Source: Candidatus Binataceae bacterium
GTDB lineage: Bacteria; Desulfobacterota; Binatia; Binatales; Binataceae
DNA length: 64,000 bases
NCBI GenBank assembly: GCA_050736715.1
Contig: JBOHWK010000169.1
Coordinates: 73-64,072 of the forward strand
Reading direction: 5' to 3'
Each line of letters starts with the position of its first letter. Position 1 is the stretch's first letter. Under the pieces are notes generated by a model. It did not search any database. It was not told the DNA's origin and was given only the letters and a program-made list of their open reading frames with translations. Below, in pieces: positions 3,255 through 17,754 of this stretch. The position numbers and the translations under genes were made by a program.

Positions 3255-3467
3255 TCAGTCCGCCATCCACCAGCGCCGGACGGCGACCAGGGACCAGACT
3301 CCCTCGACCAGCCCGAACGGCCACGCGCCTTGAAGAAATCCATAAGCGGACCCCAGCACGCATGCTCCCGCGAACGCCAGAATGAACCACGGGCTGCGGC
3401 CTTCCAGCGCATAGCACACCATCATCGCCGTCACCGCAAACAGACCGAAAAGCGTGAGTCCGCTCAT
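3255..3467 (-). CDS. small hydrophobic membrane protein (2 predicted TM helices), hypothetical
   Basis: ATG at 3467 (revcomp of cat 3465-3467) preceded by GGAGG; 70 aa MSGLTLFGLFAVTAMMVCYALEGRSPWFILAFAGACVLGSAYGFLQG...; the longer upstream-extended ORF in the track lacks an RBS. Confidence 0.4.
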   Translation of the reverse strand: MSGLTLFGLFAVTAMMVCYALEGRSPWFILAFAGACVLGSAYGFLQGAWPFGLVEGVWSLVAVRRWWMAD

Positions 3468-3542
3468 ACGCCTCCAAAGGTGGCAGATTGCCGGAAGCCG
3501 GGCCAGCGAGAAGATGCCGCCCCGCTCGATTTTGCAAATTGA

Positions 3543-3571
3543 TTGACAGGGCCGGTGGCGGGGCGATAAAA
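3543..3571 (+). promoter_or_regulatory. candidate sigma70-type promoter for the cytochrome cluster (TTGACA-N17-ATAAAA)
   Basis: TTGACA at 3543-3548, 17-nt spacer, A/T-rich -10-like hexamer 3566-3571, ~70 nt upstream of the first cytochrome gene. Confidence 0.3.
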
Positions 3572-3643
3572 AGCGGCTGCCAGTTGTTGGATCGGTCCGC
3601 AAGCGGAGGAGCGCGATAATTCGCGCGCGGGCCGAATCGCAGC

Positions 3644-5254
3644 GTGGCGTGGGAGGACGCATCGAAATTGAAGCGGTTGGGTGGTATCGCCCGAATCGTG
3701 GCCGCGATTGCCGCAATGGTGGCTGTCGCGGGATGCGGTTATGCGCCGGGGTTTACCCGGCTGTCAAAAATCGAGCAGCCGAAACCGAAGAAATCGACGT
3801 TCTTCCTCGCTTCCGCCCACTGCCAATTGTGCCATCCCGCGGAGTACGAGGAATGGCGCACCTCGATGCATGCGTATGCGCAGCACAGCCCCGTCTTTCT
3901 CTCGTTCAACGATTTCGTCCTCAAATCGAGCGGCGGGTCGCTGGGCGATTTTTGCGAACGCTGCCATACCCCCGTCGGGATGTCGTCGGGCGAAAGCCCG
4001 GTCGAGCCTAATTCCAAGCGATCCGAAGCCGCCCTCGACAGCGTCGGCTGCATCGCGTGCCACTCGGAGCACACCAATAACGCCGAAGCGTCCGGGGTAA
4101 TCCATGTTCCGGTAAACGGCGACAGCGAACCAATTATTTACGGACCCTACTACGGCTACGACGAGCCGGGCGCGCCCAAGAATCCGGCGATGCGCCTGAT
4201 CAAAACGCCCCACGAATCGCGCCATTCCGACTATTTCACCCACGCGCGATTGTGCGCGGCCTGCCATGACGTGTTCTCGCCCGACGGCTTCCGAATCGAG
4301 GAAGCGTACAGCGAATGGAAGAACGGCCCCTACGCGCGGCGCGGCATCCAATGCGAGAACTGCCACATGGGGCCGATTCCCGGCAAACCGTTCGCGCGGA
4401 CGGAATTCACCCGCGACTACATAGTCGATCCCAATCTCTTTCCCAACGCGCCGAAGCGGTACCGCTCCAACCATCGTTTCACCGGTCCCGACTATTCCCT
4501 GCTCGCGGCGTTCGGACAGAATGCGCTCTCGCTCGACAGCGCGTCGTTCAAGAAATTGGAGGCGCAACTCGAAACCCAGCGGGAGACGTTGTTGCGCAAT
4601 GCCGCCACGATGCGGGTGAAGCTGCCCGGCGGCGTGACGGCGGGAGCGGCGCTGCCGATTACGGTCGCGGTGACCAATTCGGGTGCGGGGCATAATCTTC
4701 CGACCGGATTCGCGGCGGAGCGGCAATTGTGGCTCGAGGTGATCGTCACCGACTCAACCGGAAGGCAAATCTTCATCTCCGGCAACACCGATGAAAACGG
4801 CGACCTGCTCGATCCCGACAGCGAGGAAGTCCGCGCGGGCAAGCTGCCGATCGATTTGGACCTATTCAACCTCGAGGCGCAATTCATCAATCTCGATTTC
4901 AAGGGCACCGATGCCGAGAACATCAGCACCGTCAACCGCTTCCTCGACCCGGTTCCGTTCGTGACCCCTCCCCAGACCCCATCCCTCATCAACGGAAATG
5001 TTCCGGCGGGCCGCATCTTCAAGCGCGGAATCCCGCCGCTGGAGACGCGGACGGCGGACTACCGGGTGGAGGTTCCATGGGACGCGGCGGGTCCGCTGAC
5101 CGTATCGGTTCGGCTGCGCTACCGGAATTTGCCGCCCCATCTGCTCGCCGAACTCGGCATCCCGAAATATCGAGCGAAGCTAAGAGTCGTGGACTTGGCC
5201 ACGTTCAAGAAACAGGTTGCGATCGATTCGGCCGCGGTCTCCAGCGCGCGTTGA
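3644..5254 (+). CDS. pentaheme c-type cytochrome, predicted lipoprotein
   Basis: GTG start; signal peptide ending in lipobox VAGC; five CXXCH (CQLCH, CERCH, CIACH, CAACH, CENCH) in the first ~240 aa followed by a ~300-aa non-heme domain. Confidence 0.8.
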   Translation: MAWEDASKLKRLGGIARIVAAIAAMVAVAGCGYAPGFTRLSKIEQPKPKKSTFFLASAHCQLCHPAEYEEWRTSMHAYAQHSPVFLSFNDFVLKSSGGSLGDFCERCHTPVGMSSGESPVEPNSKRSEAALDSVGCIACHSEHTNNAEASGVIHVPVNGDSEPIIYGPYYGYDEPGAPKNPAMRLIKTPHESRHSDYFTHARLCAACHDVFSPDGFRIEEAYSEWKNGPYARRGIQCENCHMGPIPGKPFARTEFTRDYIVDPNLFPNAPKRYRSNHRFTGPDYSLLAAFGQNALSLDSASFKKLEAQLETQRETLLRNAATMRVKLPGGVTAGAALPITVAVTNSGAGHNLPTGFAAERQLWLEVIVTDSTGRQIFISGNTDENGDLLDPDSEEVRAGKLPIDLDLFNLEAQFINLDFKGTDAENISTVNRFLDPVPFVTPPQTPSLINGNVPAGRIFKRGIPPLETRTADYRVEVPWDAAGPLTVSVRLRYRNLPPHLLAELGIPKYRAKLRVVDLATFKKQVAIDSAAVSSAR

Positions 5255-5260
5255 GCCGCG

Positions 5261-6706
5261 ATGCGAGTGCGACGGGTGCCAATTTCCGCAATCAGAAAGG
5301 CGAAAGCCGCCGCGATAATTTTCGCGATGATTATGCTCGCGCCGGCCGGCGCGGCGGCGTTTACGGTATTCGGCGCCGATTTCATCTCGCCGGGACAGGT
5401 CCCGGATTCAAATTGGACGCTGTTCGGAGAGACGCTCAATCCGCGCCTCGACGTGGACGGCGACATCCGGATTCAATTCAACAACTACCGGCTCGGAGCT
5501 CCGGCGCCGCCGCCATCCAGCGGCATCGCCTTCCTCTATTCGCCGCCACCGCCGGTCATTACGGGTCAGACGTTCGGGCAATTCGTGCCGGAAGCCGACT
5601 TTGAAGCGAATCTGCAATTGACCGCGACGCAGCGGATTAACGTGCTGTTCCGGCCGTTCGAGGGTGGCGATCGCGAGCCGACGATTTGCGAATTTGCCGC
5701 GCCGAAAAAAGGCTGCACGTTTCAGGAGGAAGCCGCCCCCGCCGCGCTGTATTACGAGGGCCAGCCGTTCAACTGGCTAAGTCCCACCGACCGGCTGCCG
5801 CTGGACTTCAATGTTGCGGTGGGGCGGATTCCGTTCGTGCTGCAGAATGGCCTGTTCTTCGAGAACATCTTCGACGGCTTCGCGATCTCCAAGAACAATA
5901 TCCAGTTGGGCGACCTGTCGAATTTGAACGTAATCTACTTTCTGACTCTCGGAGAGACGCAGGGCGGCGTGAATTTCCGCGACGAGCAGCAGCAGCGGAA
6001 GAAGCTGATGGGCGGGTCGGTCGATTTCGACTGGTTCGATTATTTCTTCGAGGCCGAGTACGCACGCAGCTACGGCAACAATCCGATTCCGGGCGACGGC
6101 GCCGATCTGAACCGGAGTTTCATGGCGGCTTCCGTGACCCGCAATTTCGGCGGAGAGGCCGGCGCCACGCTGCGCGCGCTGGGAAATACCGGGAATGCGA
6201 CTAGCGGCGCGGGAGGGCTGTTCGCGTTCGAGTTCAACAAATTGGTTGGCCCGGCGCAGGGCTACGTCAATGTCTTCGGCGCCACGCAAAACTGGCTTCC
6301 GCTATCGGTGGAAGGATCGGCGCTGACCCGCGAGGGAATCCTGTTCGACTTCGACCGGCTGGCGAATTTTCCCCAGCTCAATCCGCGCGGTTCCAACAGC
6401 ATCGGCGGCGCAATCGGAGCGATATTCTGGCCCAAAGCCCAAACCACCTACACGCCGGAAATCGGCTGGCTCATCGACAACAAACCCAATAACAGCAACG
6501 ACCAGATCGGCGCCGCCTTCGAGATTCAGTCGGACTTGGCCTCGCTCCTGATTCCCGGCGACGCGCCGGCGGAACTCCAGCGGCGCGGGCTATTGTATGG
6601 CACGCTCGCGCGGCTTACCTTTACTGGGATACAAAACATGAACCGCGGAGTGGCGGGCGAGCGGTTCGATTACGGGGAGCGCTTGGAGTTAATCTACCAG
6701 TTCTGA
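5261..6706 (+). CDS. outer-membrane beta-barrel protein (porin-like), no heme motif
   Basis: Starts 6 nt after the lipoprotein cytochrome; Sec signal peptide (AAIIFAMIMLAPAGAAAF); Gly/Asn/Tyr-rich alternating pattern; C-terminal ...LELIYQF with terminal Phe typical of OM beta-barrels. Confidence 0.55.
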   Translation: MRVRRVPISAIRKAKAAAIIFAMIMLAPAGAAAFTVFGADFISPGQVPDSNWTLFGETLNPRLDVDGDIRIQFNNYRLGAPAPPPSSGIAFLYSPPPPVITGQTFGQFVPEADFEANLQLTATQRINVLFRPFEGGDREPTICEFAAPKKGCTFQEEAAPAALYYEGQPFNWLSPTDRLPLDFNVAVGRIPFVLQNGLFFENIFDGFAISKNNIQLGDLSNLNVIYFLTLGETQGGVNFRDEQQQRKKLMGGSVDFDWFDYFFEAEYARSYGNNPIPGDGADLNRSFMAASVTRNFGGEAGATLRALGNTGNATSGAGGLFAFEFNKLVGPAQGYVNVFGATQNWLPLSVEGSALTREGILFDFDRLANFPQLNPRGSNSIGGAIGAIFWPKAQTTYTPEIGWLIDNKPNNSNDQIGAAFEIQSDLASLLIPGDAPAELQRRGLLYGTLARLTFTGIQNMNRGVAGERFDYGERLELIYQF

Positions 6707-6719
6707 GGGAGGAGCGAAG

Positions 6720-7082
6720 ATGATTAAGCAAAGTCTAATTTTGGCTGCCGCGGCCGTGCTCGCGATGCCGGCCGCGTCCGCGTTTGCCGCGGGAAACGCC
6801 GCCGCCGGCGCCGCAGTCGCCGCCAAGAAATGCGCGGGATGCCATGGCGCGACAGGCGCGGGCAACGGTCCGGAGTTGCAGATGCTGAATGTCACCGTCC
6901 CGCCGGTTCCCTGGACGGACAAGGCGAAGATGTCCAAGTTCAGCGACGCCTATCTCACCAAGATCGTCACCGATGGTGGCCGCGCGGTCGGAAAAGGGCC
7001 GCTGATGGCGCCGTTCAAGGGCAAGCTTACCGCCGCGCAGATAAGCGACGCGATCGCCTACATCAGGTCGCTCGCGAAATAG
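6720..7082 (+). CDS. monoheme class I cytochrome c (c55x/c6-like), periplasmic
   Basis: 120 aa; signal peptide; single CAGCH heme site; downstream Met-rich loop (GPLMAPFKG) typical of a Met sixth ligand. Confidence 0.8.
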   Translation: MIKQSLILAAAAVLAMPAASAFAAGNAAAGAAVAAKKCAGCHGATGAGNGPELQMLNVTVPPVPWTDKAKMSKFSDAYLTKIVTDGGRAVGKGPLMAPFKGKLTAAQISDAIAYIRSLAK

Positions 7083-7099
7083 AATCCGGCGGTGCGGGA

Positions 7100-7798
7100 G
7101 TGAAAGCTAATCCGCTCGACAGCGCATTCGCGTTTCTGAAGATCGGCCATCAACAGGGCGAGCAATGGGGCACAGCGCTCGATTGGGCGATTATCTTCAC
7201 GCTGGTCCTGAGCGCATCGATCATCGTCCTCGTAATGGTCAGCCGAGCCGCATACCGGGGACGGCAGGAACAGCCCCCGGCGATTTGGCTGAACGTGCTC
7301 GCATTGGGCATATTCCCCGTGCTGCTCCTATTTTTCGGAAATTTCGCTGTATTCAGCTACGCGGAGCAGGAGCAATTTTGCGCATCATGCCATCTCACGA
7401 TGCAGCCGTACATCAATGACATCGACAATCCAAGCAGCAAAAGCCTGGCCGCCTGGCACCATCAGAACCACTTTTCGCCGGGCGGCGAGGAGGCCTGCTA
7501 CACCTGCCACGCCGACTACGGAATTCACGGCACCTTCAGGGCCAAACTGTCGGGCCTGCACGACGCGTATGCGTATGCAACGCACACCTATCGTCTGCCG
7601 ATTAAGCTCAGGAGGCCATTCAGGAACAGCCTGTGCTTAAAGTGCCATAACAGCACCAGGCTGTTCATGGCGGTCGATTCGCACTTGGGCGAGGACAACA
7701 AGGTTTCGAGCGCAATTTTGGACAATTCGCTGCAGTGCACGGTCTGCCACGGCCCCGCGCACCGGCTCGAACAATTTAAGAAGGCGGCGAAAACTTAG
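7100..7798 (+). CDS. NapC/NirT/NrfH-family membrane-anchored tetraheme cytochrome c (quinol dehydrogenase)
   Basis: GTG at 7100 preceded by GGGAG; one N-terminal TM helix (WAIIFTLVLSASIIVLVMV) then four CXXCH (CASCH, CYTCH, CLKCH, CTVCH); ~230 aa, the family's architecture. Confidence 0.8.
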   Translation: MKANPLDSAFAFLKIGHQQGEQWGTALDWAIIFTLVLSASIIVLVMVSRAAYRGRQEQPPAIWLNVLALGIFPVLLLFFGNFAVFSYAEQEQFCASCHLTMQPYINDIDNPSSKSLAAWHHQNHFSPGGEEACYTCHADYGIHGTFRAKLSGLHDAYAYATHTYRLPIKLRRPFRNSLCLKCHNSTRLFMAVDSHLGEDNKVSSAILDNSLQCTVCHGPAHRLEQFKKAAKT

Positions 7799-7800
7799 CC

Positions 7801-8346
7801 ATGCCCAGTCTTCAAGTCCGAAGAGGTAATTGGCCGCCGCGATTGCTCACCGCGGCGCAGATAATGGCCGGGCTCGTCGCGCTGATCGTGCTATTCGCGA
7901 CTTTGACCCTGAATCCATTTCTGATTCTCGGTTTCACATTCCTTGAGGTTCTGCTTCCGATCGCCGTGGTGTGCTTCTTTGTCGTGGCAGTCGCTTCGCT
8001 CCATCCCACGATTACCGAATTTTTCGAACCGGGGGACGTAATCTTTGAGGAGGGGACGGAGGGAAGACACCTCTACTTGATTAAAAAAGGCCGCGTTGAA
8101 CTCCTTAAAAAGAACCCGGAAGGAGCCTTCGAAGTCGTCTCACAGCTGAGCGAAGGACAGCGTTTCGGCTACGCCGCGATCTTCCATCGCCTCCACCGCA
8201 TCTATACCGCTCGCGCGGCCGGCAAATGCGAAGTTGTGAAGATGACACCCGCCGGATTCTTTGCGTCGGTCGAACCCGCCGAAGCGGAACGCATCCTCCA
8301 GTTTGGCGCCGCGCTGACGCTCGAACAGGGAAAGCCGAATCAGTGA
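7801..8346 (+). CDS. membrane protein with a C-terminal cyclic-nucleotide-binding (CAP-family) domain
   Basis: Two predicted TM helices followed by GDVIFEEGTEGRHLYLIKKGRVEL...GYAAIF, matching the cNMP-binding beta-roll signature; 2 nt after the NapC-like gene. Confidence 0.65.
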   Translation: MPSLQVRRGNWPPRLLTAAQIMAGLVALIVLFATLTLNPFLILGFTFLEVLLPIAVVCFFVVAVASLHPTITEFFEPGDVIFEEGTEGRHLYLIKKGRVELLKKNPEGAFEVVSQLSEGQRFGYAAIFHRLHRIYTARAAGKCEVVKMTPAGFFASVEPAEAERILQFGAALTLEQGKPNQ

Positions 8347-8437: not shown

Positions 8438-11071
8438 ATGAAGCGGGGGATTATAGTCGCGCTGCTTCTGTTGATCGCCGGGTTTCCCGGCAGCCTGCTC
8501 GCCGCCGCTCCCGCAAAAGCTCCCACATGTACGCCGCTGCCTGCGGCTTCGACGCCCGGCTTCGCCACGATTCTCCTGACCTACATGGACAACTTCTGCT
8601 ACCTGAGTTGGGAGCATGACGCTCAAATCCGGTCGGCCAAAGGCACCCATCCGTATGTAAAGGTCTATTACTCGCCATCAATGTGGACGTGGCTCGAAGC
8701 CGGCGACCGCGAGGCCACCGTTCCCGACGGCGCGATGCTGGTAAAGGAACAGTACCAGACCCTTACCGCGCCGCTTTCCGAATGGACGATCATGGTCAAG
8801 GACCACACCGGATCGTGGGACGGCTGGTATTGGGCGGATTTCGCTTCGCCGAAGAAAGGCCCGCCGAAGTCACCGCCGTCCGCCACGGACGCATCCGGCG
8901 CGGCAAGTACCGTTGCAGCCGCTGCGCAGGGCAAGTATGGATGCGGGGAGCCGACGCTTACTTTCGCCGGCTTCGGTTCCGGCAACGGCAACACCTGTAT
9001 CGGATGCCATGCGTCGGCGGCGGACGGCCAGGGAACCTTTTCCAGCACCGATTACGTAGGCGCGGCATTGACGCCGCCCGATCTCAACGCGCCGCCGATT
9101 CTCGACAATATCCACCAGATTGGCGCCCGCCTGGCGGATATGCGCGCGATTGCCGCGCTCGATGCCGCCGGCGCAACTCCGCTTGAGAACGCAGTATCGC
9201 CCGATGACATCCGTCCGCTCTCCGCCGGGAAGGCGGCGTGCATGCCGCCCGAATCGCTCGACCACGTGGTGGCAGGCGGACAGCCCACCGGCGGCCCGGA
9301 AGAATTCCTGACTTCGGATCAATGCGCGTCGTGCCACGATGCGACCGGGACAATCTCGGGCACGGGCCGGGCGGATATTCCGAGTATGTTGTGGCCCGAC
9401 GCGATCACGCCGCTCGCGAATCTCTCCGAATACGGCGAGTGGCGCTATTCGATGATGGGGCTGGCGGGGCGCGATCCGATCTTCTTTTCGCAGCTCAATT
9501 CGGAATCCACCATCCATGACAATCTGCAAGGATTGCCCGGCAACCCCAGCCCTCCGCTGTTCGTGCAGAACTTATGTCTTCATTGCCACGGCGTGATGGG
9601 ACAGCGGCAACTGCAGATCGATACCGGCGGCACCGGGCTCTTGTCTCGCGCGGAACTGAACGATCCGAATTCAAAATACGGCGCGCTCGGCCGCGACGGC
9701 ATCTCGTGCCTCGTTTGCCATCATATTTCTCCCGAAGGTCTGGGCGACCCTTCCACCTTCACCGGCGATTTCAACGTCGGTCCCGCGACCGAAGTTTACG
9801 CCCAGTACCCCGATCCGATAACGTTGCCGATGGATAACGCGCTGGGTATCACGCCTGAGGACGGCAGCCAGATCGGCGATCCCGCGATGTGTGGATCGTG
9901 CCACACGATCATCCTGCCGGTGTACGCCGCCAACGGGAATCAAGTCATGGAAGGCGGCGTGCCCAAAACATTTTACGAGCAGGCGACATTTCCAGAATGG
10001 CTGAACAGCAACTTCGCAACGGTTCCCTGCCAAACCTGCCATATGCCGGACACGTATCATGGCAGTCCGCTCTCGTACAAAATCGCGAACATCGAGGACA
10101 ATACCTTCCCGGCGTTCCCGTTCGTCGCCCCCGCCGAGGACATCACGATGCAAGTGCGGCAGCCGTTCAACCGCCACACTCTCCTCGGCATCAACGTCTT
10201 CGCGCTGGAGATGTTCGGGCAGTTCCGCACCGCGCTGGGGCTTTATGCGACGGACCCACAATTGCCCGGCAATGCCGCAAAGGCGATTTCCAGCCAAAAA
10301 ACCGCAGTCGTGGAAGCGGTGAATGAGGCCGTTACCCAGACCGCGACGGTCGATATTCTTTCCGCTACCAGAGTTGGCGGCACGATTCAGGCCGATGTGA
10401 CAGTGACGAACCTGGCCGGGCATAGTTTCCCGTCTGGGGTGGGCTTCCGCCGCGCATTCGTGGATTTTCAGGTGCTCGGTCCGGGCGGGAAAGTACTGTG
10501 GGCATCGGGCGACACGAATAAGAAAGGGGTGATCGTCGGCATCAAGCGCAAGCCGCTCATCACGGAATACTTCACTCCCAAGCAGCAGGCCTTCCAGCCG
10601 CACTTTTGGATCGGCAATCCGATTACCAGCGAAAACCAGGCGCAGATTTACGAGGAATTGGTCGCCGATCCGCAGGGACAATTGACCACCAGCTTTCTCA
10701 GCTTGGACAACAAGGTAAAGGACAACCGGCTCCAGCCGCAGGGATGGTCCGTGGACGGGCCGTTCGCCGAGGAAACCGGCCCGGCCGGCGGCGCGTCTGA
10801 CGACCCCGATTACACGACCACCGACAGCCCCGGCTCCAACACGATTCGTTACGAGGTGCCGATTAATTCCAAGACCACGAACGCGATCGCGGTGAGCGCG
10901 ACCTTGTACTATCAGGCAATCCCGCCCTATTACCTGTATATGCGCTCGCACGACGCGAGCGGCCCCGACACCTCCCGTTTGAACGATTTCACCAAGCGGC
11001 TGCGCGTCAAAGGCACCCCCGTGGACAACTGGCGGCTGCAAATCGCGACGCAAACGCAGAATATTCAGTAG
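8438..11071 (+). CDS. large secreted multiheme c-type cytochrome (6 CXXCH) with an N-terminal non-heme domain
   Basis: 877 aa; Sec signal; CIGCH, CASCH, CLHCH, CLVCH, CGSCH, CQTCH; N-terminal ~150 aa is aromatic-rich (FCYLSWEHD...DGWYWADF) without heme motifs; GGGGAAG RBS. Confidence 0.8.
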   Translation: MKRGIIVALLLLIAGFPGSLLAAAPAKAPTCTPLPAASTPGFATILLTYMDNFCYLSWEHDAQIRSAKGTHPYVKVYYSPSMWTWLEAGDREATVPDGAMLVKEQYQTLTAPLSEWTIMVKDHTGSWDGWYWADFASPKKGPPKSPPSATDASGAASTVAAAAQGKYGCGEPTLTFAGFGSGNGNTCIGCHASAADGQGTFSSTDYVGAALTPPDLNAPPILDNIHQIGARLADMRAIAALDAAGATPLENAVSPDDIRPLSAGKAACMPPESLDHVVAGGQPTGGPEEFLTSDQCASCHDATGTISGTGRADIPSMLWPDAITPLANLSEYGEWRYSMMGLAGRDPIFFSQLNSESTIHDNLQGLPGNPSPPLFVQNLCLHCHGVMGQRQLQIDTGGTGLLSRAELNDPNSKYGALGRDGISCLVCHHISPEGLGDPSTFTGDFNVGPATEVYAQYPDPITLPMDNALGITPEDGSQIGDPAMCGSCHTIILPVYAANGNQVMEGGVPKTFYEQATFPEWLNSNFATVPCQTCHMPDTYHGSPLSYKIANIEDNTFPAFPFVAPAEDITMQVRQPFNRHTLLGINVFALEMFGQFRTALGLYATDPQLPGNAAKAISSQKTAVVEAVNEAVTQTATVDILSATRVGGTIQADVTVTNLAGHSFPSGVGFRRAFVDFQVLGPGGKVLWASGDTNKKGVIVGIKRKPLITEYFTPKQQAFQPHFWIGNPITSENQAQIYEELVADPQGQLTTSFLSLDNKVKDNRLQPQGWSVDGPFAEETGPAGGASDDPDYTTTDSPGSNTIRYEVPINSKTTNAIAVSATLYYQAIPPYYLYMRSHDASGPDTSRLNDFTKRLRVKGTPVDNWRLQIATQTQNIQ

Positions 11072-11123: not shown

Positions 11124-12140
11124 ATGCGCGCAATTTGGATTACCAAGGCCGGCGGGCCCGAAGTGCTGGAGGTTCGCGAGACGCCCGATCCCGTTCCCAA
11201 GCCCGGCGAAGTACGGGTCCGCGTCGCCGCGTGCGGATTGAATTTCGCCGAATTGATGGCGCGGCAGGGGCTGTACCCCGACGCGCCCAAGATTCCGTGC
11301 GTGGTCGGCTATGAAGCCGCAGGCACGATCGATGCCGTCGGCGATGGCGCCGACCCCGGCCTAATCGGCAAGCGCGTGGTGGTGCTGTGCCGGTTCGGCG
11401 GGCACGCCGATCAGGTCTGCGTCACGGCGGCGAACGCCTTCCCGATCCCGGTCGAGATGAGCTTCGAGGAAGCCGCCGCGATTCCGGTGAATTACTTGAC
11501 CGCGTACCAGATGCTGTTCCGGGTTGCCTCGATTCATCCGGGCGAATCGGTCCTGATTCACATGGCGGCGGGCGGCGTGGGAATCGCGGCGCTGCAATTA
11601 TGCCGCACCGTCGAGGGAATCGTCACCTTCGGCACCGCGTCGTCGTCGAAGCACGAGGTAATCCGCGCCAACGGCTGCGGGTACCCGATCGATTACCACC
11701 AGACCGATTATTTCGCGGAAGTCATGCGGCTGACCGGCGGCAAGGGCGTGGATGTGGTCCTCGATCCGCTCGGCGGCAACGATTGGCGCAAGGGTTACAA
11801 ATTGCTCAAGTCGGCGGGAAAATTGATCGCGTTCGGATTCTCCAACATGGCGTCCGGGAACACGCGCAACTACTGGCGGATGCTCCGCCAAATCGTGCGG
11901 GTTCCGATCTTCACCCCGATGGGCCTGATGGACAAGAATCGCAGCGTCGCCGGCGTCAACATGGGCCACCTGTGGGACGATCCCTACCTGCCGTTCGCGA
12001 TGAACCGGCTCTTAATCATGTATCGCGAGGGACAGATCAAGCCGCATATCGATTCGACGTTTCCGTTTGCGCAGGCGGCGCAGGCGCACTTGCGTCTTCA
12101 GGAAGGAAAGAATATCGGGAAAGTAGTGATGACTCCGTAG
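11124..12140 (+). CDS. zinc-binding alcohol dehydrogenase-family oxidoreductase (NADPH:quinone reductase-like, MDR)
   Basis: 338 aa; GEVRVRVAACGLNFAELMARQG N-terminal catalytic-domain motif; Rossmann AAGGVG. Confidence 0.85.
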   Translation: MRAIWITKAGGPEVLEVRETPDPVPKPGEVRVRVAACGLNFAELMARQGLYPDAPKIPCVVGYEAAGTIDAVGDGADPGLIGKRVVVLCRFGGHADQVCVTAANAFPIPVEMSFEEAAAIPVNYLTAYQMLFRVASIHPGESVLIHMAAGGVGIAALQLCRTVEGIVTFGTASSSKHEVIRANGCGYPIDYHQTDYFAEVMRLTGGKGVDVVLDPLGGNDWRKGYKLLKSAGKLIAFGFSNMASGNTRNYWRMLRQIVRVPIFTPMGLMDKNRSVAGVNMGHLWDDPYLPFAMNRLLIMYREGQIKPHIDSTFPFAQAAQAHLRLQEGKNIGKVVMTP

Positions 12141-12324
12141 CGAGTGAGTCCGATATGCGCAGCATAATGACGCCACCTAACCCCGGCGCCGCCGGCAGAG
12201 TCTGGACCGCCAAAGGTATCATGATCTCGAAAGTTCTCAGTTTTTTGGTTCCCCTTCCCGTGCGGGAAGGGACCAGGGGGTAGGTTGATTTGGAGGGTTC
12301 CCCGCCGGGCAAGGAGTTGTACGA

Positions 12325-12912
12325 ATGAAACCGATTTTGTTTGAGGAGACGCTATCGCTGGCGGATTACGAGCGCGTGCGCGCACGCCTGCGCCCGCTAT
12401 TCATCCATGAAAAGGACCGCCGCCGCCTCGGCGTGGGCGCCCATCTGACGCTGCTCTTCGAGAACGCGCAAACGGTCTGGTATCAGGTCCATGAAATGAT
12501 CCGCAGCGAGCGGATGACCGCGCGCGAGGCGATTCAGCAGGAGTTGGACACATACAACGAGTTGATTCCGGGCCCCGGCGAATTGACCGCGTCGCTGCTG
12601 ATCGAATACGCCGATACCGCCGAGCGCGACGCGGCGTTGCGGCGCTTGGTCGGTTTGGAAGACCATCTCTGGCTCGTATTGGGAGATCGGCGAATCGCGG
12701 CGAAATTCGACGATCGCCAGATGTCGCCGGAACTGATTAGCGCGGTGCAATTCCTGCGGTTCCCGCTGGACGGCATCGATGCGGACTGGTTTGAGGATCT
12801 CGCAAGCCGCGGCGCGGCCGCAATCGAGGCCGATCATCCGAGCCTGGCGGCGCGGGCGGTTATTGGCGGATTGACCGCCGCTTCCCTGATCGAAGACTTG
12901 AGCCAGCCCTGA
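12325..12912 (+). CDS. conserved hypothetical protein, DUF3501-like
   Basis: 195 aa; LTLLFENAQTVWYQVHEM segment resembles the DUF3501 family as recalled from memory; no catalytic motif recognised. Confidence 0.45.
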   Translation: MKPILFEETLSLADYERVRARLRPLFIHEKDRRRLGVGAHLTLLFENAQTVWYQVHEMIRSERMTAREAIQQELDTYNELIPGPGELTASLLIEYADTAERDAALRRLVGLEDHLWLVLGDRRIAAKFDDRQMSPELISAVQFLRFPLDGIDADWFEDLASRGAAAIEADHPSLAARAVIGGLTAASLIEDLSQP

Positions 12913-13023: not shown

Positions 13024-15513
13024 TCATTCGGTAGAACCGGAAGGCGCCGGCGTGGGGGTGAATCCCGGCATCGCGACGCCGACTGGGAAGTTCAGGTGCG
13101 TCCGGCCTCCGCGGATGACGATGCTCGGTGGGAGGTCGCAGGTGGGCGCCGGATTGCCACTGCAATCGAAATCATCCCAGACCAGGAGGCTGTTGGTCAG
13201 GTGATCCACCACATAGAGATCGTCGTTGTCGTAGTTGTTCCAAGCGATCCCGACCGGCCGTTTGAGTTTGGTCTTCTTGCCGGCGATCGTTCCGATCAGA
13301 GGCGACGCATTCGTTAACGCGGTCGTGGGGTCGCAGAAGTTATTCGGGTTAGTCGGGCCTCCCACGCAGCACGAATACGGAGTTTGGTACCCGGTGCATA
13401 CGCTGTTCGTGATATCGAAAATCTTAATCCCGACTTGGCCGCAAGTACCCGTCCCCGTGCCGGTGCAACAAGCGTATGGGGTGCCATTGCAGAAACCCTG
13501 ACCGGGTCCGCTGCAGCAACTATTCGGCGCCTCGAAGCCGGTGCACTCGCTATTCGGGCCGTCGCAGGTACCCGTCCCTGCGCCGCTGCAACACGCATAC
13601 GGCGCGCCGAGTCCGGTACAGTCGCCGTTTATGTTGTCGCAGGTGCCCGTTCCTGCGCCGGTACAACAGGCAAACGGCGCTGGATCGGTAGGGGGAGTGC
13701 TGTCGGGACCGGCAGTGCATTTGGTATTGATATCGAGGCATTTGGAGGTTAGCGCGGGATTGCCGACGTCGGTAACGAACAAGTTGCTGCTGTCCGCGGT
13801 GACGGCGAGGAATTGCGGGCCGACCAGCGGACCGGCTAATAGCGGCGGAAGGTTCGCGCCCACGGCGCCTACCGGAATTACGTCTCCGGCGGCGTCCGGC
13901 GCGAATACCAGGACTGCCGCAATGCCCTTGGTTTCGCCGGCGGCGTCCGTGACAAACAGATTGTTATTGCCGTTGAATGCCAGCCCGGACGGGCCGAGCA
14001 GGACGGTGTTGCATCCCGCAATCGTGGCCAGCTTTGTGATCGTTGGCGGCTGCAGGCCCGGAACCGGGCAACTGGTGCAGGCGGCGTTTTGCTCGAAGAT
14101 TTCGCCCGCGTTAATCGGAGAGTTATTGCCCGACGCGTCGGATTCGTTCGTGTAATATTCGTTAATTGACCCGACGCTCGCCGCCGCGCCCAAGCCCGCA
14201 CTTATGCTGTTGCAGGTGCCGGTGCCGGGGCCTGTGCAGCAGGTATAAGGCGCGGCGCAACTGCCAACCCCCAATCCGGTGCAACACGCAACCGGCTCCT
14301 CATTGCCGGTGCATCCGGCGTTGCCTACCCCGGTGCACTCGGCGTTCGTGGGGGGAGTCGCCGGATCGCAGGTTATGGGGCAGAGCAGGCCGTTAATCCC
14401 GGTTGCGTTAGCTCCGCTGCAAGTGGTGTCGGTTCGCTCGCAATCTCCCGTTCCCGCCCCGGTACAGCACGGGAAAGCGCTTGGCTCCATTGTTATCTGG
14501 TTAATGCCGGTTCCCGGCCCGGTGCACTCCACACTTGGAAGAGGGGTATGGACAGTCTCGGTGGGACTCACGAAAAACCCATAATTCGACACGGCGAAAT
14601 ACTCGCCGGTGTTGCCGTTTCCTTGCGCGATGCCATCGGCAACGAGGGGATCGTCGGTATTGTACGGATTGGCGAAGGCGATGTCCTCCGGTGCGAACAG
14701 CCCCGCTTGGTCGCCGTCAGCAAGTCCCGCGGGGCAGGAACCGGCCTCCGGGCCGGTGCAGCATGGGTAAGGTATTCCGCAAGTGCCGGCGTTTTTGCCG
14801 ATGCAGCAGGAATTCGGCAGCCCTTTGGCGGTGCATCCGGAGTTGCCGCAGGTGCCCATCCCATCGCCGGTGCAACATGGATACGGCTCCGCGAATGCCG
14901 TGCAGGCGGCGTTAGGACTGGAAGTCGGTCCCGACAAGCACTCCGAGTTGCTGGAAGAATTCGGCATCGGAGAAGAAATCGTTGCGGCTGGGGGCGTATT
15001 GCCGTTGGACGAACCGGGCGAGAACAATCCGATTGAAAAGAAAAGCTGCGTGGCCAAGCCCGCGTTGACTTCGGTGTTCGTTTCGACCATGGGACTGTTG
15101 GACAGCGAACCGACCCCGATCCCGCCGACGACGGCGACGGACGGGGCGATCATGCCGGTTTTGTTGCCCTTGATTTCGGTGGCGGGCTTGGCATTGCCGT
15201 GGGAGCAGGGAGCGAAAGTCTCGACCGAGCCGGCGCCGCCGCCGTAGTTGGATACCGCCAGGCCCGCGAGTGGAGCGGTGGGAAATTCCGACGTATCCAT
15301 CCCGTCGGGGCATTTGCCGCTTTTCGCGTCCGCCTTCGCCTTGGACCCCGCGAAGCTGACGCCCGCCGTCGCCGCAAGCATCGCGGCGATCGCGAACGCC
15401 GCCGCCGGAACCGCAAGCCGGCGAACTGCGGCGGCAAGACGCCCCGCCGCCGTGCGGGCGGGCGAAACTCCATGCGCCTCTTGAGCCATCGTTTGCATTT
15501 TTCCCTGCGTCAT
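13024..15513 (-). CDS. large secreted Cys/Gly/Thr-rich repeat protein with NHL-like beta-propeller repeats
   Basis: 829 aa; ATG at 15513 with GGGGGT RBS; signal peptide (RRLAVPAAAFAIAAMLAATAG); ~11 degenerate repeats of PY-x-CC(T/S)G-x-G(T)G(T)C; NLFVTD / DLYVVDHLTNSLLVWD NHL-type motifs. Confidence 0.7.
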   Translation of the reverse strand: MTQGKMQTMAQEAHGVSPARTAAGRLAAAVRRLAVPAAAFAIAAMLAATAGVSFAGSKAKADAKSGKCPDGMDTSEFPTAPLAGLAVSNYGGGAGSVETFAPCSHGNAKPATEIKGNKTGMIAPSVAVVGGIGVGSLSNSPMVETNTEVNAGLATQLFFSIGLFSPGSSNGNTPPAATISSPMPNSSSNSECLSGPTSSPNAACTAFAEPYPCCTGDGMGTCGNSGCTAKGLPNSCCIGKNAGTCGIPYPCCTGPEAGSCPAGLADGDQAGLFAPEDIAFANPYNTDDPLVADGIAQGNGNTGEYFAVSNYGFFVSPTETVHTPLPSVECTGPGTGINQITMEPSAFPCCTGAGTGDCERTDTTCSGANATGINGLLCPITCDPATPPTNAECTGVGNAGCTGNEEPVACCTGLGVGSCAAPYTCCTGPGTGTCNSISAGLGAAASVGSINEYYTNESDASGNNSPINAGEIFEQNAACTSCPVPGLQPPTITKLATIAGCNTVLLGPSGLAFNGNNNLFVTDAAGETKGIAAVLVFAPDAAGDVIPVGAVGANLPPLLAGPLVGPQFLAVTADSSNLFVTDVGNPALTSKCLDINTKCTAGPDSTPPTDPAPFACCTGAGTGTCDNINGDCTGLGAPYACCSGAGTGTCDGPNSECTGFEAPNSCCSGPGQGFCNGTPYACCTGTGTGTCGQVGIKIFDITNSVCTGYQTPYSCCVGGPTNPNNFCDPTTALTNASPLIGTIAGKKTKLKRPVGIAWNNYDNDDLYVVDHLTNSLLVWDDFDCSGNPAPTCDLPPSIVIRGGRTHLNFPVGVAMPGFTPTPAPSGSTE

Positions 15514-15816
15514 TTTGTAACCCCCGCCGAATTCGGATCGACTCCCCGTTGCAGGACCAATCAGCGTTGCGCGTGTTAACTACCTTTTTCCGGCGGCAAT
15601 TTCAAGAGCACCGCAATTATTTTTGTGGCTGCGCCCGGCGGCGAGGTCGCCGGCCGTCGCTCCGGGAAGTCCGTCGTACTTGACAAGGCGGGGATCGGAA
15701 TGGTACCTAAGCCGCGTCCGCAGAGCGTCGCCTGCACTGGCGGGCGATGGGGTCTCCCGGCCGGGGCCGGAAGATTTGCGATGCCGCGAGAGCTCCAATT
15801 TGGCTTGGGGGTAGGT

Positions 15817-17754
15817 ATGCAGCACGGGAACATGGGACGCATGACGAGGGGGCGGATATTGCTCGTGGCCGCAATCGCGGCGGCGGCGACCTTGTGGTCC
15901 TCCGCCGCGATGGCGACGATCACTCAGGGCGATTTTTCCGTTTACGGATTCTTCGAGACCCGCGAATCGGGCCGCTGGGGCGAGGCCAGCGTCAAGAACA
16001 ACGGCACCCAGACCACCTACACTCATCCCATTCCGGGTGCGACCGAAGTTCTAAAGGGCGGGCAAGCAGGCAGCTACACCGGGGGCAGCTTCGATTTCAA
16101 TCATTGGGACCTGGTGGAAGCTCGCCAACTCGGCGACATCCGCCCCGACTATCATTTCGTAAAAAACTACAAATTCCTCGGTCGGTTCGACACGATTCTC
16201 CTCAAGGATGCCGACTTCTTTGCGTTGTGGCGGCCGTGGTACGACGCGGAAGGAGACCTCAAGAGCCAAGGAGTCGCCAACACCAACCGCGATTGGAACA
16301 ATTACCAGCACTACCAGATCACGCAGCAATACATCCGGGACGATCTGCACGAATATTACGCACAGTTGAATTTCACCGATAATTTCTCCGCGCGCATCGG
16401 CAAGCAGCAGGTAATTTGGTCGGAGGCGGACGCCTTATCGGGCACCGAGATCACCAACTCGGTGGACACCACCTATCACTGGCTGAACTTCGAATCGCCC
16501 GAAGACCTGCGCAAGAACGTGCGGATGATCAAGTTCAACTACATTCTCCCCGATATGTACAAGACCGCCAACAATGAAATCGACTTTTTCATTATTCCCG
16601 GCGATTTCCAGGGCGATGGCATCAATGTCAATCTCGGCGACGCCCGCAATCCGTGGACGCCGCCGGCGGCCGGCAGCCATTCGGCGTTGCTGTCGTCCTC
16701 GTACAACCAGAACGGCGAACCGTATTACGCCGCGACACCGCAACGGAGCGGCGCCGCGCCGATGACTCTGGTTTCGGCCGCGGGCGGCGGCGGCACATTT
16801 TTCGACCTGATGGAGGAGCCGTACGGCCACCCGCCCAGCAACTCGCTGGAAAACAGCGAATTCGGAATGCGCATCTCGAGCCTGCTGCCGATTGGCAACG
16901 GCCTCCAGATGAGTTTCATCTATTTGTACGAGGCGCGCGACTCCAAAATCAGCCTGTGCTCGAGTTGCGGTCCGCTGCAAGCGCAGCGGGCTTCGGCGGA
17001 ATTCATGGGGGCCGGTGCAAGGGCCTCGAACTGGGAATATCCGCCGGGAGGAATCGCGGCGCCCGCCGGGACCTTCGTCAATTTCGGCAACTACCGGTAT
17101 GGCTTCCCGCGCGCCGGCGTGCCGAAGGCCGGGACGGTGCTGGTCATGTACAACACCGATTACCGCCGCAATAACTTCTTCGATTTGACCGGCACCTATT
17201 ACGACAAGGACCTCACCGACATCGTGTACCGCTACGACTTTTTCTACGCCCCGAAGGTGGGTATCGCCACCGTCGAACCCTACGGAAAACTGGCCGGCCT
17301 GCCGGGTCCGGGAGCGGCGGGACAATGGACCCAGGAGTCCCGCTGGATCGTGGCCGCTGACCGGCCGACCTATATCCCGTGGATTTCCAAGCAGCACACC
17401 TTCCTGACCTTCCAGAACACCCTGACTTGGTATCCCGCCCTGCCGGAGCATGCGGTGGCCAATCTGCTGCAAACCGCGGGGAAGATTCGCGAGACCAGCG
17501 ATCTGTTTTTGGTGGCCGCGACCGATTGGCTGATGAACGGCCAGTTGACGACGCTGAATGCGGCCGCGTGGGACGTCGACGACCGCGTCGGCGAAATTAC
17601 CACCAGCAATTCGTACCGCTATTCGCGCAACGTTCTGTTCGGCGTGAACAGCGTCTGGTATCTGGGACAGAGCGGTAGGTACACCGATCCTTACACCTTC
17701 AGCCGCAGCCAGGTGATGAACGAATTGGAATTCACCCTGACCTACGAGATTTAG
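15817..17754 (+). CDS. large secreted/outer-membrane protein, hypothetical (possibly DUF1302-like)
   Basis: ATG at 15817 after GGGGGTAGG; signal peptide RILLVAAIAAAATLWSSAAMA; 646 aa, Tyr/Asn/Gly-rich beta-strand-like periodicity; DUF1302 assignment is from memory of family size only. Confidence 0.5.
   Translation: MQHGNMGRMTRGRILLVAAIAAAATLWSSAAMATITQGDFSVYGFFETRESGRWGEASVKNNGTQTTYTHPIPGATEVLKGGQAGSYTGGSFDFNHWDLVEARQLGDIRPDYHFVKNYKFLGRFDTILLKDADFFALWRPWYDAEGDLKSQGVANTNRDWNNYQHYQITQQYIRDDLHEYYAQLNFTDNFSARIGKQQVIWSEADALSGTEITNSVDTTYHWLNFESPEDLRKNVRMIKFNYILPDMYKTANNEIDFFIIPGDFQGDGINVNLGDARNPWTPPAAGSHSALLSSSYNQNGEPYYAATPQRSGAAPMTLVSAAGGGGTFFDLMEEPYGHPPSNSLENSEFGMRISSLLPIGNGLQMSFIYLYEARDSKISLCSSCGPLQAQRASAEFMGAGARASNWEYPPGGIAAPAGTFVNFGNYRYGFPRAGVPKAGTVLVMYNTDYRRNNFFDLTGTYYDKDLTDIVYRYDFFYAPKVGIATVEPYGKLAGLPGPGAAGQWTQESRWIVAADRPTYIPWISKQHTFLTFQNTLTWYPALPEHAVANLLQTAGKIRETSDLFLVAATDWLMNGQLTTLNAAAWDVDDRVGEITTSNSYRYSRNVLFGVNSVWYLGQSGRYTDPYTFSRSQVMNELEFTLTYEI

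What the first reader, a model, noticed from the sequence alone, without database searches (positions are those of the whole stretch)
13024..15513. Giant secreted protein built from a novel-looking Cys-rich repeat (PYxCCTGxGTGTC) plus NHL-like propeller repeats
The 829-aa product carries at least 11 degenerate tandem copies of a ~14-25 aa unit with a vicinal Cys pair (e.g. PYPCCTGDGMGTCG, YTCCTGPGTGTC, YACCTGTGTGTCG, FACCTGAGTGTCD, YACCSGAGTGTCD). The DNA shows the matching degenerate ~70-90 nt repeats. They are interspersed with NHL-type motifs (NLFVTD, DLYVVDHLTNSLLVWD), and the protein is 25% Gly+Thr with ~60 Cys. I do not recognise the CC-T-G-x-G-x-G-x-C unit as a named domain. It could be a disulfide-knotted adhesin or S-layer-like surface protein.
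Basis: seen in the sequence. Interest (0 to 1): 0.7.

Follow-up and report, generated by a model that had tools for sequence, protein, structure and literature searches.

The report
Unnamed four-cysteine mini-repeat decorating a propeller
An exported beta-propeller protein of an uncultured Binatia bacterium carries 11 copies of a tiny four-cysteine module absent from every domain library searched, and this module appears and disappears like a plug-in cassette in the loops of unrelated secreted proteins.

Summary
ORF 13024-15513 (-) encodes 829 aa with 54 Cys and 11 Cys-Cys pairs.

- **The unit.** It is a 19-residue module, C-T-G-x-G-x-P-x-x-C-C-T-G-x-G-x-G-x-C. The spacing C-x8-CC-x7-C is strict in about 93% of the 460 or so full units examined. 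C1, P7, C10, C11 and C19 are invariant, and G17 nearly so.
- **Chance.** A model built only from units of unrelated proteins scores the protein at 165 bits. The best of 200 shuffles scores 4.8.
- **Libraries.** No Pfam, NCBIfam or PDB entry covers the unit.
- **Rarity.** An exhaustive search of 1.84 billion representative proteins found only 276 clusters, with diverse and mostly signal-peptide-bearing hosts.
- **The scaffold.** It is an NHL-type propeller restricted to Binatia. It almost always sits divergently next to a DUF1302-like outer-membrane gene (window 15817-17754).
- **Copy number.** Orthologues carry 0-3 units, and this protein carries 11, all in insert columns.
- **Second family.** NHL plus multihaem cytochromes show clean unit-sized indels at eight or more sites.
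- **Selection.** Third codon positions vary freely, so selection acts on the peptide and not on a DNA element.

Most likely the unit is an autonomous mini-domain stapled by two disulfides and used as a rigid loop decoration. It is a new sequence family of a known general kind. Interest is moderate.

The parts
13024..15513 (-). CDS of the 829-aa exported NHL-type propeller carrying 11 four-Cys units
   Evidence: ORF. Composition. Orthologue alignment. PDB NHL hits.
15349..15513 (-). N-terminal export signal, aa 1-55. It has a long conserved n-region with RRL, an Ala-rich hydrophobic core, and ends ...VSFA/GS.
   Evidence: Read from the sequence and conserved across the family. Sec versus Tat was not resolved.
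14839..14913 (-). Unit 1 (aa 201-225), complete: NAACTAFAEPYPCCTGDGMGTCGNS
   Evidence: HMM domain at 32.3 bits
14776..14844 (-). Unit 2 (aa 224-246), complete: NSGCTAKGLPNSCCIGKNAGTCG. Shared with orthologue P0001.
14731..14778 (-). Unit 3 (aa 246-261), compressed. It shares a Cys with unit 2: (C)GIPYPCCTGPEAGSC.
   Evidence: This is the most widely shared site in the family.
14437..14526 (-). Unit 4 (aa 330-359), with an enlarged first loop: CTGPGTGINQITMEPSAFPCCTGAGTGDC. Unique to the window protein.
14251..14322 (-). Unit 5 (aa 398-421), complete: NAGCTGNEEPVACCTGLGVGSCAA. Unique to the window protein.
14206..14253 (-). Unit 6 (aa 421-436), compressed: APYTCCTGPGTGTCNS
13633..13722 (-). 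Unit 7 (aa 598-627), with an enlarged first loop: CTAGPDSTPPTDPAPFACCTGAGTGTCDN. It is the first of a four-unit array inserted between two strands of an NHL blade (FVTDVGNP ... GIKIFD).
13558..13629 (-). Unit 8 (aa 629-652), complete: CTGLGAPYACCSGAGTGTCDG
   Evidence: HMM at 33.0 bits. Part of the 75-nt tandem.
13486..13554 (-). Unit 9 (aa 654-676), complete: NSECTGFEAPNSCCSGPGQGFCN
13438..13485 (-). Unit 10 (aa 677-692), compressed: GTPYACCTGTGTGTCG. This site is shared with P0001.
13333..13407 (-). Unit 11 (aa 703-727), with a degenerate second loop: NSVCTGYQTPYSCCVGGPTNPNNFC. Unique to the window protein.
13939..14016 (-). NHL-like blade motif (aa 500-525): GCNTVLLGPSGLAFNGNNNLFVTDAAG
   Evidence: Pfam NHL at 19.3 bits over aa 506-523. 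NCBIfam ScyF NHL.
13759..13830 (-). NHL-like blade motif (aa 562-585): VGPQFLAVTADSSNLFVTDVGNP
   Evidence: The family profile aligns here to solved NHL propellers.
13174..13272 (-). NHL-like blade motif (aa 748-780): TKLKRPVGIAWNNYDNDDLYVVDHLTNSLLVWD
   Evidence: alignment, and invariant columns
15817..17754 (+). Divergently transcribed 645-aa DUF1302-like outer-membrane protein with a signal peptide. It is the conserved partner gene.
   Evidence: 76% identical in L001. Present upstream in 20/20 loci and in 13/14 metagenome loci with 1240 nt or more upstream. Homologues at 54-55% identity carry PF06980.
15514..15816 (.). Divergent intergenic region between the propeller gene and the DUF1302-like gene
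   Evidence: No consensus sigma-70 promoter was found.

Best explanation
**What the gene encodes.** It encodes an exported NHL-type beta-propeller found in Binatia. The gene is paired divergently with a DUF1302-like outer-membrane protein. The propeller probably works with that protein in the cell envelope (inferred).

**The unit.** Eleven copies of a 19-residue module, not modelled in any library searched, sit in the surface loops of the propeller: C-T-G-x-G-x-P-x-x-C-C-T-G-x-G-x-G-x-C.
- It is selected at the amino-acid level (shown).
- It occurs almost only in proteins with export signals (shown).
- Most likely it folds on its own in the oxidising periplasm into a tiny beta-bridged double loop held by two disulfides (inferred). 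The tentative pairing is C1-C3 and C2-C4.

**What the unit does.** Its role is structural (inferred). It would act as a rigid, protease-resistant knob or spacer that enlarges or stiffens exposed loops, or forms stalk-like linkers when tandem. It is not needed for the core function of the scaffold, because most orthologues lack it (shown).

**How the units spread.**
- By local tandem duplication. The 75-nt array at 13438-13722 is an example.
- By rare in-frame insertion or deletion of exactly one unit in loops that tolerate it. This gives a cassette-like, patchy distribution in at least two unrelated protein families (shown).
- The molecular mechanism of insertion is unknown.
For: **Unit definition.** The spacing is strict in 85/94 full units and 343/368. 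C1, P7, C10, C11 and C19 are invariant, and G17 is nearly so (341/343).

**Not chance.** 165 bits against 4.8 for the best shuffle.

**Peptide-level selection.**
- Identity among window units is 0.74, 0.76 and 0.51 at codon positions 1, 2 and 3.
- Orthologous units differ by many synonymous changes, including a TCC/AGC serine switch.
- No copies occur in other frames, on the other strand or in non-coding DNA across 302 kb, and none elsewhere in the window.

**Accessory nature.** All units lie in low-occupancy alignment columns. Orthologues have 0-3 units.

**Cassette behaviour in a second family.** Clean indels of 22-25 aa occur at eight or more sites among proteins 59-78% identical.

**Export.** 111 of 135 full-length hosts have an N-terminal hydrophobic segment. 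Hosts include Sec-dependent multihaem c-type cytochromes.

**Structure.**
- The two-unit AlphaFold model has pLDDT 75 with short beta bridges.
- C2 and C4 are lost together, with C1 and C3 kept, in two independent degenerate units.

**Scaffold.** The family profile hits solved NHL propellers.

**Partner gene.** Synteny. PF06980 in homologues. Published cofitness of DUF1302 with a beta-propeller protein and an RND exporter (10.1101/072470).
Against: - No disulfide has been observed. The connectivity rests on two loss events, and one unit (P0082) lost C2 alone.
- The full-length model failed (pLDDT 31), so the loop locations are inferred from alignments only.
- The family's N-terminus has a long n-region with RRL that could be a Tat signal. 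Tat export of a pre-folded protein would fit disulfide folding poorly.
- The window's DUF1302-like protein does not itself hit PF06980.
- No experiment links the propeller to the outer-membrane protein.
- A structural role is a default inference, not a demonstrated function.
Confidence: 0.6

Rival explanations
1. The units are metal-binding or redox sites. Four thiolates per unit would coordinate Zn, Cu(I) or Fe, in a metallothionein-like or rubredoxin-like way. They would serve metal sequestration or electron transfer, for example in the multihaem cytochrome hosts.
For: There are four invariant Cys in 19 residues. Many hosts are multihaem cytochromes. One host also has a MopE-type Cu-binding motif. 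The propeller family has a possible Tat-like N-terminus.
Against: The C-x8-CC-x7-C spacing is unlike known CxxC or CPxCG knuckles. The invariant Pro and near-invariant Gly, and the small Gly/Thr/Ala residues, are typical of tight disulfide-stapled turns. Hosts also include hydrolases, Ig-like and propeller proteins with no redox role. C2 and C4 can be lost together while C1 and C3 stay, which fits pairs rather than a tetrahedral site. There is no match to any metal-binding family.
Confidence: 0.15
2. One reading: the protein is a disulfide-knotted adhesin or an S-layer-like surface protein built from the repeat.
For: The protein is exported, Cys-rich and rich in Gly and Thr. Some other hosts carry adhesin-type domains such as PKD, Ig-like, CARDB or DUF11.
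Against: The repeat is accessory, not the building block, since orthologues have 0-3 units. No S-layer, anchoring or adhesin domain was found in this protein. The conserved context is a DUF1302-like outer-membrane gene.
Confidence: 0.1
3. The unit is a selfish in-frame mobile DNA element, like Rickettsia palindromic elements. On this view the peptide conservation is a by-product.
For: Unit-sized presence/absence at many different sites in orthologues of two families. Units within one protein resemble each other slightly more than units of other proteins, even when more than 100 aa apart (0.56 against 0.50, with 0 of 300 permutations reaching the observed value).
Against: Third codon positions are far more variable than the first two. 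Orthologous units differ by many synonymous changes. No copies occur in other frames, on the other strand or in non-coding DNA across 302 kb. No terminal inverted repeats or consistent target-site duplications were seen. Occurrence is largely restricted to exported proteins.
Confidence: 0.05
4. The Cys and Thr residues are substrates for enzymatic cross-linking, forming lanthionine-like or other thioether rings rather than disulfides.
For: Thr is conserved next to Cys at positions 2, 12 and 18, and at 6 and 16.
Against: No maturase-type gene lies in the conserved neighbourhood. Units are embedded in large Sec-type exported proteins, not in leader-core peptides. The neighbouring genes are DUF1302-like and DUF3501.
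Confidence: 0.03

Closest known systems
Small disulfide-rich repeat modules: knottins/ICK such as spinach trypsin inhibitor SOTI-III (4aor), secreted Cys-rich repeat proteins, and the conotoxin-like C-CC-C framework
   Same: A very small module with adjacent Cys-Cys and conserved Gly and Pro, used singly or in tandem in secreted proteins. The best PDB sequence match, which is not significant, is a knottin (E=0.087).
   Different: There are only four Cys per unit, so no cystine knot is possible. There is no significant sequence match and no fold match. The hosts are bacterial. The units are embedded in loops of large proteins and are not free peptides.
Myxococcus cysteine-rich acidic repeat (TIGR02232) / DUF4215 (PF13948)
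   Same: A bacterial Cys-rich repeat of secreted proteins from delta-proteobacteria-like lineages. It co-occurs with the unit in 3 of 94 hosts.
   Different: It has a different motif. Its HMM does not match the window protein even at E up to 10.
NHL-repeat beta-propellers (PF01436; SOQ1, TRIM3 and TRIM71 NHL domains)
   Same: The scaffold's C-terminal half aligns to solved NHL propellers (E=1.9e-6 to 3.3e-4). Orthologue P0003 passes the Pfam threshold.
   Different: The window protein is just below the Pfam cutoff (19.3 against 20). Its blades are interrupted by Cys-rich inserts of up to about 100 aa. Its N-terminal half is only weakly blade-like.
DUF1302/DUF1329/BNR-propeller/RND envelope gene set of Proteobacteria
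   Same: A DUF1302-type outer-membrane protein genetically coupled to a beta-propeller protein (10.1101/072470). The coupling here is a conserved divergent pair.
   Different: The propeller here is NHL-type, not BNR/Ycf48-type. No DUF1329 or RND gene was seen in the conserved neighbourhood. The window's outer-membrane protein is too divergent to hit PF06980 itself.
Rickettsia palindromic elements (in-frame insertions in coding genes; recalled from general knowledge)
   Same: Short segments are present or absent in frame at different sites of orthologous proteins.
   Different: Here conservation is at the peptide level and not the DNA level. There is no palindromic structure, and there are no copies outside coding frames.

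Membership tests
The four-Cys unit described here (no existing name) | C-x8-CC-x7-C spacing with Pro at position 7 and Gly at position 17 | tested here: met
   Five of the 11 window units meet it exactly. The other six are compressed or loop-expanded variants. An HMM built from unrelated proteins scores the protein at 165 bits.
NHL repeat (PF01436) | Score at or above the Pfam gathering threshold of 20 bits | tested here: not met
   19.3 bits, E=0.0011, aa 506-523. Orthologue P0003 reaches 24.6 bits.
NHL repeat (PF01436) | Profile-level similarity to solved NHL propellers | tested here: met
   Family profile A1 against the PDB: SOQ1 7djl E=1.9e-6, TRIM3 7qrw 2.1e-5, TRIM71 6fpt 3.3e-4.
NHL repeat (PF01436) | A closed six-bladed propeller fold | tested here: inconclusive
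   The full-length AlphaFold model has pLDDT 31. Comparison of the N-half and C-half gave a weak shared blade motif (probability 13%, E=0.0022).
Myxococcus Cys-rich repeat TIGR02232 / DUF4215 | A match to the family HMM | tested here: not met
   No hit at E up to 10 in NCBIfam or Pfam.
Knottin / inhibitor cystine knot | Six Cys forming three disulfides, one threading the ring of the other two | tested here: not met
DUF1302 (PF06980), for the neighbour at 15817-17754 | A match to the Pfam HMM | tested here: inconclusive
   The window protein has no hit at E up to 10. Five homologues at 54-55% identity carry PF06980 in precomputed annotation.
In-frame mobile DNA element (RPE-like) | DNA-level conservation, copies in any frame or in non-coding DNA, terminal repeats or target duplications | tested here: not met
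   Codon-position identities of 0.74, 0.76 and 0.51. No stray copies in 302 kb. No target-site duplications.
Disulfide-bonded domain | Cys residues oxidised to cystines in the mature protein | not testable with these tools
   Only indirect evidence is available: export signals and the correlated loss of C2 and C4.

The most novel reading that the evidence does not exclude
The C-x8-CC-x7-C unit is a new autonomous protein fold. It acts as an evolutionary plug-in cassette: a 22-25-residue, self-folding disulfide module that bacteria of several lineages repeatedly insert in frame into, and delete from, loops of exported proteins. A dedicated or biased DNA-level mechanism may underlie this. If so, it would be a natural system for loop grafting and rapid surface diversification.
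Probability: 0.25. Interest if true: 0.75.

Novelty: new variant of a known kind. Interest (0 to 1): 0.5.

Why it matters
- **A gap in the libraries.** Small disulfide-rich repeats are well known in eukaryotic toxins and extracellular proteins, but few are defined in bacteria. This one is sharply defined, with five invariant residues and one nearly invariant one in 19. It is rare (276 clusters among 1.84 billion representatives) and absent from Pfam, NCBIfam and the PDB. Describing it would name an unannotated part of several hundred environmental proteins.
- **Modular protein evolution.** Exact unit-sized gain and loss at many loop sites of otherwise conserved propellers and cytochromes is an unusually clean natural example of modular loop insertion. 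A 19-residue self-folding staple that tolerates grafting could interest protein engineers.
- **A handle on Binatia.** The work also flags a conserved gene pair in Binatia, a DUF1302-like outer-membrane protein with an NHL propeller. This gives a handle on the envelope biology of an uncultured phylum.

Tried and rejected
1. Full-length AlphaFold with the 8-sequence alignment gave pLDDT 31 and was unusable.
2. The search for homologous proteins rejected the single-unit alignment as too short. With the two-unit profile it recovered only one protein, although the same HMM scores the known hosts at 70-190 bits locally. The fault lies in candidate collection by the word index.
4. Exact look-ups of the window protein with three alternative starts found nothing on record. 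The metagenome scan found no relative closer than 45-56% identity. Recent gain or loss therefore could not be studied at the DNA level for this gene.
5. A search for target-site duplications at four insertion sites of the cytochrome family found nothing consistent.
6. Literature searches for Binatia with cysteine-rich, and for the motif, found nothing relevant. The motif is spelled in the letters A, C, G and T, so text searches are confounded by DNA.
7. Cluster look-ups to obtain taxonomy returned only 'hypothetical protein' and 'CXXCH cytochrome' labels.
8. The promoter and terminator scan was uninformative.
9. I considered and rejected a lanthipeptide-like modification, an S-layer protein, and slipped-strand phase variation of the tandem array. 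The array copies are only 76% identical.
Full report
**Observation.** The ORF at 13024-15513 on the minus strand is present and encodes 829 aa. A G-rich Shine-Dalgarno-like run precedes the ATG, and relatives share the N-terminus MTQG.... The protein has 54 Cys (6.5%), 24.1% Gly+Thr and 11 Cys-Cys pairs. The copies are not one tandem array but five clusters of 3, 1, 2, 4 and 1 units. At the DNA level, Tandem Repeats Finder sees only a 75-nt period with 2.1 copies (13525-13680, 76% identity). The repeat finder sees nine copies of a 39-nt core at 62-82% identity.

**Definition of the unit.** I extracted units from the window protein and from 21 database hits.
- 85 of 94 full units have exactly the spacing C-x8-CC-x7-C.
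- The consensus is N-x-x-C-T-G-A-G-T-P-[LWYF]-[AP]-C-C-T-G-[AP]-G-T-G-T-C.
- C1, P7, C10, C11, G17 and C19 are invariant.
- In 148 further proteins from an exhaustive search, 343 of 368 full units keep this spacing. C1, C10, C11 and C19 stay invariant there, P7 holds in 342 of 343 and G17 in 341 of 343.
- Tandem units are separated by 4-8 residues.
- In the window protein five units are canonical. Three are compressed, with the last Cys of one unit serving as the first of the next. Two have an enlarged first loop, and one has a long last loop.

An HMM built only from 64 units of unrelated proteins scores the window protein at 165 bits. The best of 200 shuffles reaches 4.8 bits. The repeat is far beyond chance.

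**Is it a known domain?**
- Pfam gives only a sub-threshold NHL hit for the window protein.
- NCBIfam gives only a weak NHL-type ScyF hit.
- Among 94 other unit-bearing proteins, no Pfam or NCBIfam family is shared by more than 9. The unit itself is therefore not modelled there.
- A profile search of all PDB sequences gives nothing significant. The best match is a spinach knottin trypsin inhibitor at E=0.087.
- Literature searches found nothing.

**How common is it?** An exhaustive HMMER search of 1.84 billion representative proteins with a two-unit profile found 276 clusters at E up to 1e-3 and 63 at E up to 1e-10. The hosts are diverse. They include NHL, SBBP, Kelch and lactonase-type propellers, multihaem c-type cytochromes, alpha/beta hydrolases and Ig-like or PKD proteins. 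Many have no recognised domain. Of 135 hosts that start with Met, 111 have an N-terminal hydrophobic segment. Source labels include Candidatus Binatia and a MAG labelled Planctomycetes.

**The scaffold and its context.**
- Relatives of the window protein are few and all come from Binatia, Binataceae or MAGs labelled 'uncultured delta proteobacterium'.
- Alignment shows a conserved scaffold of about 450-550 aa in which every Cys-rich segment of the window protein falls in insert columns.
- The family profile matches solved NHL propellers: SOQ1 at E=1.9e-6, TRIM3 at 2.1e-5 and TRIM71 at 3.3e-4.
- The N-terminal half shares a weak blade-like motif with the C-terminal half.
- The largest insert is about 100 aa and holds four units. 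It splits the conserved FVTDVG(D)N|SIKIF hairpin of one blade.
- Orthologues carry 0-3 units, and most metagenomic ones carry none. The window protein, with 11, is the extreme, and seven of its units are unique to it.
- The gene is always divergent from a 645-aa gene (window 15817-17754, 50-76% identical). That gene is present in 20 of 20 loci with enough upstream DNA and in 13 of 14 metagenome loci with 1240 nt or more upstream.
- That neighbour has a signal peptide and no direct Pfam hit. Homologues at 54-55% identity are annotated PF06980, DUF1302.
- Published mutant-fitness work links DUF1302 outer-membrane proteins with DUF1329, a beta-propeller (BNR) protein and an RND exporter. The authors proposed that these export an envelope component (10.1101/072470). 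Another study suggested a role in fatty-ester use (10.1101/2020.07.04.188060).
- DUF3501 lies convergently downstream in most loci and is probably unrelated.

**Protein module or DNA element?**
- Among nine window units, identity is 0.74, 0.76 and 0.51 at codon positions 1, 2 and 3.
- Orthologous units in two cytochrome genes differ by many synonymous changes, including TCC against AGC for a conserved Ser.
- A six-frame HMM scan of 302 kb of Binatia DNA, and of the whole window, finds units only in frame in this gene family.
- No terminal inverted repeats or consistent target-site duplications were found.
- Selection therefore acts on the peptide.

**Cassette-like behaviour.**
- In the propeller family, units occupy about seven distinct alignment sites with patchy presence.
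- In an unrelated family of NHL plus multihaem cytochromes (59-78% identical), exact indels of 22-25 residues occur at eight or more sites, and array copy number varies from 1 to 3. One example is DAN|WQCTEAGVPLACCSGPGAGTCA|ELYAV.
- Units within a protein are slightly more alike than units of different proteins, even when more than 100 residues apart. Identity is 0.56 against 0.50, and 0 of 300 permutations reached the observed value. This suggests copying within a gene.

**Mechanism.**
- I infer that each unit is an autonomous mini-domain stapled by two disulfides formed after export.
- Two independent degenerate units lost C2 and C4 together while keeping C1 and C3. This hints at C1-C3 and C2-C4 pairing. 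The evidence is thin, and one unit lost C2 alone.
- The two halves of the unit are similar: C-T-G-x-G-T-...-C appears twice.
- A structural role fits several observations. Such a role could be a rigid knob, spacer or stalk. The observations are that the scaffold does without the unit, that the hosts are diverse, and that the unit sits in loops or linkers.
They are listed with their evidence in the rival section.
- The family's long N-terminal region with RRL could be a Tat signal. If confirmed, that would favour cofactor or metal binding over periplasmic disulfide folding.

**Verdict.** But the protein is not giant, the repeat is an accessory decoration rather than the building block, and nothing supports an S-layer or adhesin role. 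The unit is a new sequence family within the known general class of small disulfide-rich repeats. Its plug-in distribution is the most interesting aspect.

Noticed in passing
window 8438-11071 (+): An 877-aa protein with a signal peptide and only weak hits to cytochrome c, cytochrome P460 and multihaem families. It has no NCBIfam match.
   Followed up: no
window 13024-15513 (-), CC codons: The first Cys of the Cys-Cys pair is TGT in 5 of 9 units. TGT makes up only 8 of the 54 Cys codons in the gene, so TGT-TGC seems preferred over TGC-TGC.
   Followed up: no
window 15349-15513 (-) and all family members: The N-terminus is long and conserved: MTQG...(A)RRL(S/A)V followed by an Ala-rich hydrophobic core. 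It might be a Tat rather than a Sec signal. No Tat model hit was returned.
   Followed up: partly
window 15625-15816 (+): The mechanical ORF list starts the neighbouring gene at GTG 15625. All homologues begin at the ATG at 15817 (MQHGN...), so the first 64 codons are probably not translated.
   Followed up: yes
window 11124-12912 (+), compared with L001 and L002: In other Binatia loci DUF3501 is preceded by a CCG/Fer4 iron-sulfur protein. In the window it is preceded by a PIG3-type NAD(P)H quinone oxidoreductase instead.
   Followed up: no
P0022 (73 aa) and other short hits: Some database proteins of 70-200 aa consist of little more than one or two units. They may be fragments, or they may be free mini-proteins.
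   Followed up: no
P0009-P0020, about aa 577-660 (NHL plus multihaem cytochrome family): A conserved degenerate unit, NWLCTGPGTPYAYCTG.G.GT, has lost its second and fourth Cys in all members while the first and third remain.
   Followed up: partly
L015 (CAVQAR010000013.1) 3370-8276: In this MAG the propeller gene, the DUF1302-like gene and the DUF3501 gene are all broken into several frames. This could be pseudogenisation or long-read assembly errors.
   Followed up: no
unit consensus: The consensus peptide CTGAGTP..CCTGAGTGTC is spelled almost entirely with the letters A, C, G and T. Text or pattern searches for it will collide with nucleotide strings.
   Followed up: no
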